From the NCBI RefSeq assembly GCF_009914755.1, contig NC_060940.1: 64,000 nt of DNA. One strand, 5' to 3'. Shown piece after piece: positions 9,875 to 12,467 of this stretch. The notes beneath the pieces are model-generated. The model was not told the DNA's origin, ran no database searches, and saw nothing but the letters and a program-made list of their open reading frames with translations. This DNA comes from the human T2T-CHM13v2.0 reference genome, Homo sapiens. The position numbers and the translations under genes are program-made. Positions within the stretch are counted from its first letter, which is position 1. Each line of letters opens with the position of its first letter.

Positions 9875-10543
9875 GTGAGTGAGCGCTGTGTCTCGCCTGG
9901 GGTAGGGGTGTGTCCTGTCAGCCGTGGGGGCTGCTCTTCCTGGTGGTGGAGGCCAGGTCCCAGTCCTTCCCCACACTTGTAGAAACATGCATTCTCTGGT
10001 AGGGCCTGCAAACCTGCCCTACCAAACCTGAAAGAGGGTCGGCTCATCTCGGAACCCGCTGCGTGCCAAGCCAGGCACGAGGAGGTGGCAGGCATCCCGA
10101 CCCCCGTGGGGCCTGTGTTCTAGAGTGCAGAGACAGAACTGGCTGGGAGGTGCGGGGCATTGGATTGTACCAGTGCTGGGGAGGAGAGCAAAGCAGGGGA
10201 AGGTCTCGGCAGCGCCGAGGTGTGGCCGAGAGGGTTGTGCTCTGCACCATGCTGGGATGCAGAATGGAGGCCTGTGCCGCCCAGATGGACTCAGCCTGCA
10301 CAGCCGTGACCCCTGACTGCATCTGGGTAGCTTCGATCCACGCACATGTGGCGGGCACAGTGAGGCTGCCACCTGGTCAGACCTCGGGGCTGACCCTGCC
10401 TGACAGCATGTGTGAAATCCCTCTTTAAGATGGGCCTCCTCCGAGGAGCTGTGAGGGGTGAGGGTGAAATCCCTCCTTAAGACGAGCCTCCTCTGAGGGG
10501 CTGTGAGGGGTGAGGGTGAAATCCCTCCTTAAGACGGGCCTCC

Positions 10544-10846
10544 GGCCGGGCGCGGTGGCTCACGCCTGTAATCCTAGCACTTTGGGAGGCCGAGGTGGGC
10601 GGATCACGAGGTCAGGAGATCGAGACCATCCTGACTAACACGGTGAAACCACGTCTCTACTAAAAATACAAAAAATTAGCCGGGCGTGTTGGCGGGCACC
10701 TGTAGTCCCAGCTACTTGGGAGGCTGAGGCAGGAGAATGGCATGAACCCAGGAGGCAGAGCTTGCAGTGAGCCGAGATCGCGCCACTGCACTCCAGCCTG
10801 GGCAACATAGTGAGACTCCGTCTCAAAAAAAAAGAAAAAAAAAAAA
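10544..10846 (+). mobile_element. AluY copy 1 (TSD AAGACGGGCCTCC)
   Basis: Full-length Alu with A-tail; 13-bp TSD at 10531-10543 and 10847-10859; TT|AAGA L1 endonuclease site. Confidence 0.95.
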
Positions 10847-11015
10847 AAGACGGGCCTCCTCCGAGGGGCTGTGAGGGGTGAGGGTGAAATCCCTCCTTAA
10901 GACGGGCCTCCTCCGAGGGGCTGTGAGGGGTGAGGGTGAAATCCCTCCTTAAGATGGGCCTCCTCCGAGGGGCTGTGAGGGGTGAGGGTGAAATCCCTCC
11001 TTAAGACGGGCCTCC

Positions 11016-11318
11016 GGCCGGGCGCGGTGGCTCACGCCTGTAATCCTAGCACTTTGGGAGGCCGAGGTGGGCGGATCACGAGGTCAGGAGATCGAGACCA
11101 TCCTGACTAACACGGTGAAACCACGTCTCTACTAAAAATACAAAAAATTAGCCGGGCGTGTTGGCGGGCACCTGTAGTCCCAGCTACTTGGGAGGCTGAG
11201 GCAGGAGAATGGCATGAACCCAGGAGGCAGAGCTTGCAGTGAGCCGAGATCGCGCCACTGCACTCCAGCCTGGGCAACATAGTGAGACTCCGTCTCAAAA
11301 AAAAAGAAAAAAAAAAAA
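11016..11318 (+). mobile_element. AluY copy 2
   Basis: Appears identical to copy 1, including the interrupted A-tail. Confidence 0.95.
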
Positions 11319-11487
11319 AAGACGGGCCTCCTCCGAGGGGCTGTGAGGGGTGAGGGTGAAATCCCTCCTTAAGACGGGCCTCCTCCGAGGGGCTGTGAGG
11401 GGTGAGGGTGAAATCCCTCCTTAAGATGGGCCTCCTCCGAGGGGCTGTGAGGGGTGAGGGTGAAATCCCTCCTTAAGACGGGCCTCC

Positions 11488-11789
11488 GGCCGGGCGCGGT
11501 GGCTCACGCCTGTAATCCTAGCACTTTGGGAGGCCGAGGTGGGCGGATCACGAGGTCAGGAGATCGAGACCATCCTGACTAACACGGTGAAACCACGTCT
11601 CTACTAAAAATACAAAAAATTAGCCGGGCGTGTTGGCCGGCACCTGTAGTCCCAGCTACTTGGGAGGCTGAGGCAGGAGAATGGCATGAACCCAGGAGGC
11701 AGAGCTTGCAGTGAGCCGAGATCGCGCCACTGCACTCCAGCCTGGGCAACATAGCGAGACTCCGTCTCAAAAAAAAAGAAAAAAAAAAA
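11488..11789 (+). mobile_element. AluY copy 3
   Basis: Same private variants as copies 1 and 2; differs by two substitutions (ggccggcacc, atagcgagac) and one tail A. Confidence 0.95.
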
Positions 11790-12467
11790 AAGACGGGCCT
11801 CCTCCGAGGGGCTGTGAGGGGTGAGGGTGAAATCCCTCCTTAAGACGGGCCTCCTCCGAGGGGCGGTGAGGGGTGAGGGTTATTTGCGTGCAGCTAGTAT
11901 ACACACATTACGTGACCACTCATCGCCTATTAGGATGTCCTGGAAGCAGCATCCCTTTCTCGGTTCTGTGGGTTTCCAGGGCTCTGTCTGGGCCCCGAGG
12001 AGGCCCACGGCGTGGGGTTGGGCAGCTTCTAGCACAGGCAGAAACGTGCCCCCCAGAGGGGCCTGGCCAGGCCTCAGTCTGCTCGCTGACCCCAAAAGTT
12101 TCGTCCCCTGTGTCTAAGAAGCACCTTTGTCCTCCTCTGGGGCTGCATGCAGCTGGCCATATGCTCCACCAGTGCAGCCGTGTCTGGAAACGCGGCTGGG
12201 AGGCCCTGTCCTTTGTGGCAGAGCTGTGCTGCTGTGTCACAGGCTGTAGCGTCAGCACCTCCCTTGAAGGCAGGTGGGCTGCCAAGAAGCCGCTGCCACT
12301 TACCCCAGAACACTGGAGATCACTGCAGGCTCTGCCCTCGGGGCCCGTTCCCCTACATGGCGGCCTCTGCCCTCAACCTGCAGTGCTGGCTCTTCCACTG
12401 GGCACAGGTGGCCTCCGCTCCCACCAGCCTGCCATGGGGTCCAGTCTTTGTGATTAAAACATCCAAC

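What the first reader, a model, noticed from the sequence alone, without database searches (positions are those of the whole stretch)
10412..11880. An AluY captured by a minisatellite and amplified as a 472-bp higher-order tandem repeat
Seen: three full-length AluY copies start exactly 472 bp apart (10544, 11016, 11488). Each unit is a 303-bp Alu plus a 13-bp TSD plus three 52-bp minisatellite units. All copies share the same TSD (AAGACGGGCCTCC), the same TT|AAGA endonuclease site inside the minisatellite unit, the same private variants (aatcctagc, cctgactaac, aaaccacgtc) and the same G-interrupted A-tail. Inference: one retrotransposition event followed by unequal crossover or slippage between flanking minisatellite units, i.e. 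Alu multiplication without retrotransposition. Near identity implies a very recent, probably polymorphic, copy-number variant that short reads would miss.
Basis: partly seen in the sequence, partly recalled or inferred. Interest (0 to 1): 0.8.

Follow-up and report, generated by a model that had tools for sequence, protein, structure and literature searches.

The report
Alu amplified inside an intronic minisatellite
One old Alu that landed inside a 52-bp minisatellite in a TCF25 intron has been copied along with its neighbouring repeat units to make three tandem 472-bp blocks, which is a tidy but ordinary example of a composite tandem repeat.

Summary
Window 10412-11880 is a 472-bp tandem repeat (3.1 copies, 98% matches, TRF score 2868). 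Each block is one Alu with its A-tail (303 or 302 bp), a 13-bp target-site duplication, and three 52-bp minisatellite units. Blocks 1 and 2 are identical at 472 of 472 positions. Block 3 differs by 2 substitutions and one A in the tail.

Removing the Alu and one TSD copy restores a perfect 52-bp unit in all three blocks. This supports a single L1-type insertion, later amplified by out-of-register exchange between minisatellite units.

Three points need correcting:
- The "AluY" label is unverified; the element is Y/Sc-type.
- Two of the three "private variants" also occur in other genomic Alus.
- The Alu is not young: 14 differences from canonical-state copies, 17 of about 24 CpGs left.

Near identity does not prove recency. 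Zero differences in 472 bp is compatible with up to about 4-6 My. Polymorphism could not be tested, because only one human haplotype was available.

Tandem repeats and composite repeats built from transposable elements are known kinds. I found no paper on this locus.

The parts
10412..11880 (+). Whole composite array: 472-bp period, 3.1 copies
   Evidence: TRF: 98% matches, score 2868. Self-shift comparison.
10412..10515 (+). Two diverged edge units of the 52-bp minisatellite, each with 3 differences from the unit consensus
   Evidence: unit table; segmentation.
10516..10883 (+). Alu-bearing 52-bp unit 1 (368 bp): 5' TSD 10531-10543, Alu with tail 10544-10846, 3' TSD 10847-10859
   Evidence: Excising the Alu and one TSD gives a perfect 52-bp unit.
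10884..10987 (+). Two intact 52-bp units. The second (10936-10987) carries the C>T variant AAGATGGGC.
10988..11355 (+). Alu-bearing unit 2 (368 bp): 5' TSD 11003-11015, Alu with tail 11016-11318, 3' TSD 11319-11331. Block 2 is identical to block 1.
11356..11459 (+). Two intact 52-bp units. The second (11408-11459) again carries the C>T variant.
11460..11826 (+). Alu-bearing unit 3 (367 bp): 5' TSD 11475-11487, Alu with tail 11488-11789 (302 bp), 3' TSD 11790-11802. It has 2 substitutions and a tail 1 nt shorter.
11827..11880 (+). Terminal 52-bp unit with a private T>G change, then the end of the array. Only about one unit follows the third Alu-bearing unit, not two intact units plus another Alu-bearing unit.

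Best explanation
A locus-specific, G-rich 52-bp minisatellite in TCF25 intron 12 received one Alu (Y/Sc-type, sense to the gene). The insertion was L1-mediated target-primed reverse transcription at a TT|AAGA site inside one unit and made a 13-bp TSD. Much later, misaligned homologous exchange between minisatellite units on either side of the Alu duplicated a 472-bp segment. The exchange could have been unequal sister-chromatid or meiotic crossing-over, or replication slippage or template switching. The duplicated segment is the Alu, its TSD and three units. The first duplicate pair then diverged by one substitution in each lineage and one tail base. One copy later duplicated again by in-register exchange between the 472-bp blocks, giving the present X-X-Y order. 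At least one further change at the 52-bp level is needed to explain why about one unit, rather than three, follows the last Alu.

Shown: the anatomy, the restored empty site, the variants shared by all copies, and the copy-to-copy differences. Inferred: the recombination mechanism, the order of events and all dates. No function is implied. The array is most likely a neutral intronic composite VNTR.
For: -: 472-bp period with nested 52-bp arrays.
- blocks 1 and 2 differ at 0 of 472 positions.
- excising the Alu and one TSD restores the exact 52-bp consensus in 3 of 3 Alu-bearing units. The same C>T variant unit immediately precedes Alu-bearing units 2 and 3.
- the same TSD, the same TT|AAGA site and the same G-interrupted tail in every copy.
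- the copies share all 15 differences from the majority of the 27 nearest Alus. They differ from each other at only 2 sites, so those changes predate the duplication.
- the Alu body keeps 17 CpGs, against 23-24 in canonical-state copies. This indicates a long residence before duplication.
- 4 of 4 genomic matches to the minisatellite lie in this array, so the homology that drove the exchange is local.
- 40 unrelated Alu matches in the window are at most 90.7% identical to this one.
- each copy contains two 7SL (Metazoa_SRP)-like halves, as expected for a dimeric Alu.
Against: - No second haplotype, ape orthologue or raw reads were available. The empty or single-copy ancestral state was therefore not observed directly.
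- The breakpoints cannot be placed, because the flanking 52-bp units are identical.
- The simplest two-step model does not reproduce the array ends (two diverged units upstream, about one unit downstream) without an extra step.
- Part of the Alu's divergence was inherited from its source lineage (A108, A214, A261 and T265 are shared with L008, L009 and L017). This weakens the estimate of how old the insertion is.
Confidence: 0.85

Rival explanations
1. The 472-bp repeat is old, at or before the human-chimpanzee split. Its copies stay nearly identical through ongoing gene conversion or unequal exchange (concerted evolution), so identity reflects the last homogenisation and not a recent origin.
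For: - The substitution clock is weak. Zero differences in 472 bp has P>0.05 up to about 6 My at a uniform 0.5e-9/bp/yr, and about 3.7 My with CpG hypermutability. Two differences are compatible with 0.3 to about 8-13 My.
- The 52-bp units inside the blocks are themselves 98-100% alike, while the edge units are diverged. That is the usual pattern of homogenised arrays.
Against: The A-tails (A9GA14, A9GA14, A9GA13) are long mononucleotide runs, which mutate quickly (recalled, not calibrated here). Their near identity favours a short time since the copies last shared an ancestor. That would also be true under conversion.
Confidence: 0.2
2. Assembly artefact: the true CHM13 haplotype has fewer or more blocks.
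For: No call gives evidence for this. Perfect 472-bp repeats are a class of sequence in which assemblers can miscount.
Against: The array is only 1.47 kb, well inside the length of single long reads used for this assembly (recalled). Block 3 carries its own 3 differences and the array has unique flanks.
Confidence: 0.03
3. The tandem copies arose during the retrotransposition event itself, for example by template switching, as proposed for some TE-derived tandem repeats.
For: Ahmed and Liang suggest that initiation of TE-derived tandem repeats may be linked to retrotransposition (PMC3389668, passages read).
Against: - Each block also contains three intact host minisatellite units and a complete TSD pair. 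Copying of the Alu RNA cannot produce these.
- Changes seen in few or none of the nearest relatives are shared by all three copies: T53 (3 of 27), A91 (1 of 27), A155 (1 of 27) and A207 (2 of 27).
Confidence: 0.02
4. Three independent Alu insertions into the same position of three minisatellite units.
For: The TT|AAGA site recurs in every 52-bp unit, so the target is repeated.
Against: The bodies are identical (0 and 2 differences), the TSD length is identical, the position of the G interruption in the tail is identical, and the spacing is exactly 472 bp. The nearest other genomic Alu differs at 11 of 281 positions.
Confidence: 0.005

Closest known systems
TE-derived tandem repeats of the human genome (Ahmed and Liang 2012, PMC3389668; Jurka and Gentles 2006, known only as cited there)
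   Same: A full or partial transposable element repeated head-to-tail in place by local duplication, not transposition. The paper cites the Haber-Louis model, in which flanking direct repeats allow slippage or unequal crossing-over (passages read).
   Different: - The direct repeats here are units of a pre-existing host minisatellite, not 5-20-bp repeats. The unit is a whole Alu plus host repeats.
- That survey kept only the smallest period among overlapping arrays. A nested 472-bp period over 52-bp arrays may therefore have been recorded only as the 52-bp repeat.
- I could not see its supplementary list.
Composite elements of the T2T-CHM13 repeat annotation (Hoyt et al., bioRxiv 10.1101/2021.07.12.451456)
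   Same: [quoted passage not shown] Some evolve as one higher-order unit (passages read).
   Different: The 19 curated composites are large or multi-locus arrays. This one is a 1.5-kb, single-locus, three-copy array. I do not know whether it is in their track.
Higher-order repeats of alpha satellite
   Same: A long period is superimposed on a short tandem period, and long-period copies are nearly identical.
   Different: In classic higher-order repeats the monomers within a unit are clearly diverged (recalled). Here the 52-bp units within a block are 98-100% alike. The long period is defined by the inserted Alu and one C>T variant.
SVA composite retrotransposon
   Same: Alu-type sequence lies next to a GC-rich VNTR with units of tens of bp (PMC3389668 describes SVA as derived from SINE-R, VNTR and Alu).
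   Different: SVA is mobilised as one unit to many loci. This minisatellite exists only here, and nothing indicates that the composite moves.

Membership tests
Alu SINE (dimeric, 7SL-derived) | Two 7SL-related monomers joined by an A-rich linker | tested here: met
   each copy has two Metazoa_SRP matches, left half 52.9 bits and right half 55.5-57.3 bits. All are below the 70-bit gathering score, as expected for Alu rather than a true SRP RNA. The linker CTAAAAATACAAAAAATTAG is visible.
Alu SINE (dimeric, 7SL-derived) | 3' A-tail, flanking TSD and an L1 endonuclease-type target | tested here: met
   tail A9GA14 or A9GA13, a 13-bp TSD, a TT|AAGA site, and empty-site restoration in 3 of 3 copies. 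The endonuclease consensus TT|AAAA is recalled.
AluY subfamily | Subfamily-diagnostic positions | tested here: inconclusive
   No Dfam or RepeatMasker library was available; the copy shares the Y-branch right-monomer states with all compared copies. However, it has T89 and C96 (CCTG.CTAACACGG), where L010 and L016 have C89 and A96. By recall, the latter is the AluY consensus state and the former is AluSc-like.
Minisatellite / VNTR | Head-to-tail units of 10-100 bp | tested here: met
   ten 52-bp units, three of them interrupted by the Alu.
Minisatellite / VNTR | Copy number varies among individuals | not testable with these tools
   Only one human haplotype (the window's assembly) was available. 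The 40-base junction search in two other collections gave 0 matches.
Composite element (Hoyt et al.) | [quoted passage not shown] | tested here: met
   the unit is an Alu plus three 52-bp repeats; 3.1 copies. The definition was read. The match is in the loose sense only, because just two kinds of repeat are involved.

The most novel reading that the evidence does not exclude
The 472-bp amplification arose after the human-chimpanzee split and still varies in copy number among people. It would then be a hidden variant in the TCF25-MC1R pigmentation block that is poorly genotyped by short reads. Through its G-quadruplex-prone, CpG-rich blocks it would influence TCF25 or neighbouring gene regulation, or tag hair-colour association signals.
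Probability: 0.05. Interest if true: 0.6.

Novelty: new member of a known kind. Interest (0 to 1): 0.3.

Why it matters
This is an unusually clean worked example of two things. It shows how a minisatellite can gain a higher-order period, and how Alu copy number can rise without retrotransposition. Every step is readable from a single sequence.

Its practical value would come only if the copy number varies among people. It lies 17 kb upstream of MC1R, in a region of strong pigmentation association signals, and perfect 472-bp blocks are hard to genotype with short reads. As a phenomenon it is expected from known minisatellite and tandem-duplication behaviour.

Tried and rejected
- **Other haplotypes:** I searched for the 40-base minisatellite-Alu junction in genome contigs and viral contigs in case of stray human sequence. 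There were 0 matches in each.
- **Literature:** four full-text searches found nothing on this locus.
  - PMC11701250 reports a population-differentiated VNTR "in the exon of TCF25" without coordinates in the text. TCF25 does not appear in the one supplement held. It cannot be linked to this array and may be another TCF25 VNTR.
  - The "Alu tandems" in PMC3592446 are adjacent Alus whose spacing is set by the variable length of the first Alu's A-tail, which is a different thing from these 472-bp blocks.
- **PRDM9 motif:** the 13-mer CCNCCNTNNCCNC (recalled) has 0 matches on either strand of 10380-11900.
- **Inverted Alu pairs in intron 12:** none; all 5 Alu matches there are on the + strand.
- **Genome-wide survey of similar Alu-in-minisatellite arrays:** not attempted, because the genome is not available as a file.

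Full report
**Observation**

Window 10412-11880 is a tandem repeat with a 472-bp period: 3.1 copies, 98% matches, no indels, score 2868. It contains nested 52-bp arrays. Alu heads start at 10544, 11016 and 11488.

The first two 472-bp blocks are identical at all 472 positions. The third differs by G>C at block position 151, T>C at block position 268, and a tail one A shorter.

Segmenting on the 52-bp unit gives ten units:
- two diverged edge units (10412, 10464), each with three differences from the consensus;
- three Alu-bearing units (10516-10883, 10988-11355, 11460-11826);
- two pairs of intact units between the Alu-bearing units;
- one terminal unit (11827), which has a private change.

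As a chance control, the other 40 of 43 Alu matches in the window are 74.1-90.7% identical to this Alu. The three copies are 99.3-100% identical to each other.

**Anatomy of the insertion**

Every copy is flanked by AAGACGGGCCTCC, and the upstream site reads TT|AAGA. Removing the Alu and one TSD copy restores a 52-bp unit identical to the consensus in 3 of 3 Alu-bearing units. This is the signature of a target-primed insertion into one minisatellite unit.

Each copy has two 7SL-like halves in the Rfam scan, all below gathering score. Each also has the A-rich linker and a tail of A9GA14 (A9GA13 in copy 3). The sub-threshold mir-1268 and mir-3135 matches in the same scan lie inside the Alu bodies, and I read them as Alu-derived similarity.

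The minisatellite is specific to this locus: 4 of 4 genomic matches to the 169-bp spacer fall inside the array. By the hub's exon table the array lies in TCF25 intron 12. It is 538 bp after exon 12 and 1318 bp before exon 13, and the Alus are in the sense orientation.

**How old is the Alu, and is it AluY?**

A search of the window's own genome scored 40 of 2064 first-look candidates. Three were the copies themselves, and the best other Alu was 96% identical. I aligned the 27 fetched non-self copies. These 27 were chosen by similarity to the query, so they are biased towards sharing its variants.

- The TCF25 Alu differs from their majority at 15 positions.
- It differs from the closest copy (L008, chromosome 11) at 11 of 281 positions.
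- It differs from canonical-state copies (L010, L014, L016) at 14 positions.
- All these differences are shared by the three TCF25 copies, so they predate the amplification.

- T32 is in 20;
- A108 is in 3 (L008, L009, L017);
- A91 is in 1 (L017).

L008, L009 and L017 also share A214, A261 and T265 with the TCF25 Alu. The combined motif pair occurs at 7 genomic places, of which 3 are here and 4 are elsewhere. The reversed control pattern occurs at 0. Part of the divergence therefore came with a small source lineage.

Changes seen in few of the 27 are T53 (3), A155 (1) and A207 (2), all at CpG sites, plus A91 (1). The body keeps 17 CpGs (18 in copy 3), against 23-24 in canonical-state copies. 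With recalled CpG decay rates this points to millions of years of residence. My rough estimate is 5-30 My, and this is inference only.

At positions 89 and 96 the copy has the state shared with L014, L008 and others, not the state of L010 and L016. By recall, the former is AluSc-like and the latter is the AluY consensus. Without a repeat library, "AluY" remains unverified, and "Y/Sc-type" is safer.

**Mechanism**

Both full spacers carry the same C>T variant unit immediately before the next Alu-bearing unit. The blocks were therefore copied as wholes.

The most economical history is:
1. One insertion.
2. A first 472-bp duplication by out-of-register exchange or slippage between a unit upstream of the insertion point and a unit three positions downstream.
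3. Divergence of the two copies: one substitution in each lineage, plus one tail base.
4. An in-register duplication of one copy, giving the X-X-Y order.

The polarity of the change at position 268 is ambiguous. T is also found in L008 and L009, while C is found in 21 of 27.

The array ends do not fit this history without at least one more gain or loss of 52-bp units. There are two diverged units before the first Alu-bearing unit and only about one unit after the last. This extra step is inference.

Each intact 52-bp unit contains a four-run G motif on the + strand only: 8 matches on +, 0 on -. The array is CpG-rich, with 75 CpGs and an observed/expected ratio of 0.62. The recalled PRDM9 13-mer is absent. 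Several other minisatellites lie in the same gene, which fits a repeat-prone chromosome-end region. The position near the end of 16q is recalled, not measured.

**Timing and polymorphism**

I assumed mutation rates of 0.5e-9 per bp per year uniformly, or 0.4e-9 for non-CpG and 5e-9 for CpG sites. These are general knowledge, not taken from a call. Results:

| Comparison | Differences | Uniform rate | With CpG hypermutability |
|---|---|---|---|
| Blocks 1 and 2 | 0 in 472 bp | 95% upper bound 6.4 My | 95% upper bound 3.7 My |
| Block 3 against 1/2 | 2 substitutions | 4.2 My (range 0.5-13 My) | 2.5 My (range 0.3-7.9 My) |

Near identity alone therefore does not show a very recent event, and ongoing conversion would reset the clock.

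The nearly identical long A-runs suggest a shorter time, but I have no calibrated rate for them. Perfect 472-bp direct repeats are good substrates for unequal exchange, so I judge copy-number variation in humans somewhat more likely than not (about 0.55). That is an opinion, not a result. Only one haplotype could be examined, and two long-shot searches for others found nothing.

**Comparison with what is known**

[quoted passage not shown] That survey kept only the smallest period among overlapping arrays, so a nested case like this one may have been recorded only as a 52-bp repeat.
- The T2T repeat paper defines composite elements as repeating units of three or more repeats including TEs (bioRxiv 10.1101/2021.07.12.451456, passages read). 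This array fits that definition loosely.
- Four searches found no paper on this locus.

**Verdict**

The subfamily label and the "private variants" need correcting, and recency and polymorphism remain open. The array is a small, clean new member of a known kind, of modest interest unless it proves variable and linked to the neighbouring pigmentation signals.

Noticed in passing
window 16405-19097: A 2.7-kb C-rich VNTR (14/21/35-bp units such as CTCCCACCTCCCAG, about 190 copies of the 14-mer) begins 3 bp after the TCF25 exon ending at 16402. It may be the population-differentiated 'exonic' TCF25 VNTR of PMC11701250, but no coordinates were available to check this.
   Followed up: no
window 1332-1496: A 78-bp repeat (2.1 copies, 89% matches) overlaps the 3' end of the exon at 1272-1354. 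It includes a CAGGTGAGG-type junction, so the exon-intron boundary region looks duplicated just downstream.
   Followed up: no
window 7346-7583: A G-rich 40-bp minisatellite (5.9 copies, 88% matches) lies about 50 bp upstream of the exon at 7637.
   Followed up: no
L008 (G000 C11:107983050-107983330), L009 (C3:200676921-200677201), L017 (C3:49520550-49520829): Three Alus share A108, A214, A261 and T265 with the TCF25 Alu, and share A139 and A231 among themselves. This suggests a very small source lineage. The combined motif occurs at only 7 places in the genome.
   Followed up: partly
L011-L013, L015, L018-L024, L027-L034: 19 of the 27 nearest Alus share A52, T88 and T112, and most of them also share T206 and A253. 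This looks like a distinct Alu subfamily that also carries the query's GTGTTGG state. It was not identified, for lack of a repeat library.
   Followed up: no
window 24236-25251: A complex TG-rich repeat of about 1 kb with several overlapping periods (30, 32, 36, 60 and 120 bp) lies between TCF25 and MC1R.
   Followed up: no
literature: A 2026 paper reports that a tandem repeat in chicken TCF25 intron 1 is associated with MC1R activation (PMC13743518, listing and abstract start only). It is not homologous to this array, but it shows that repeats in TCF25 introns can matter for MC1R.
   Followed up: no
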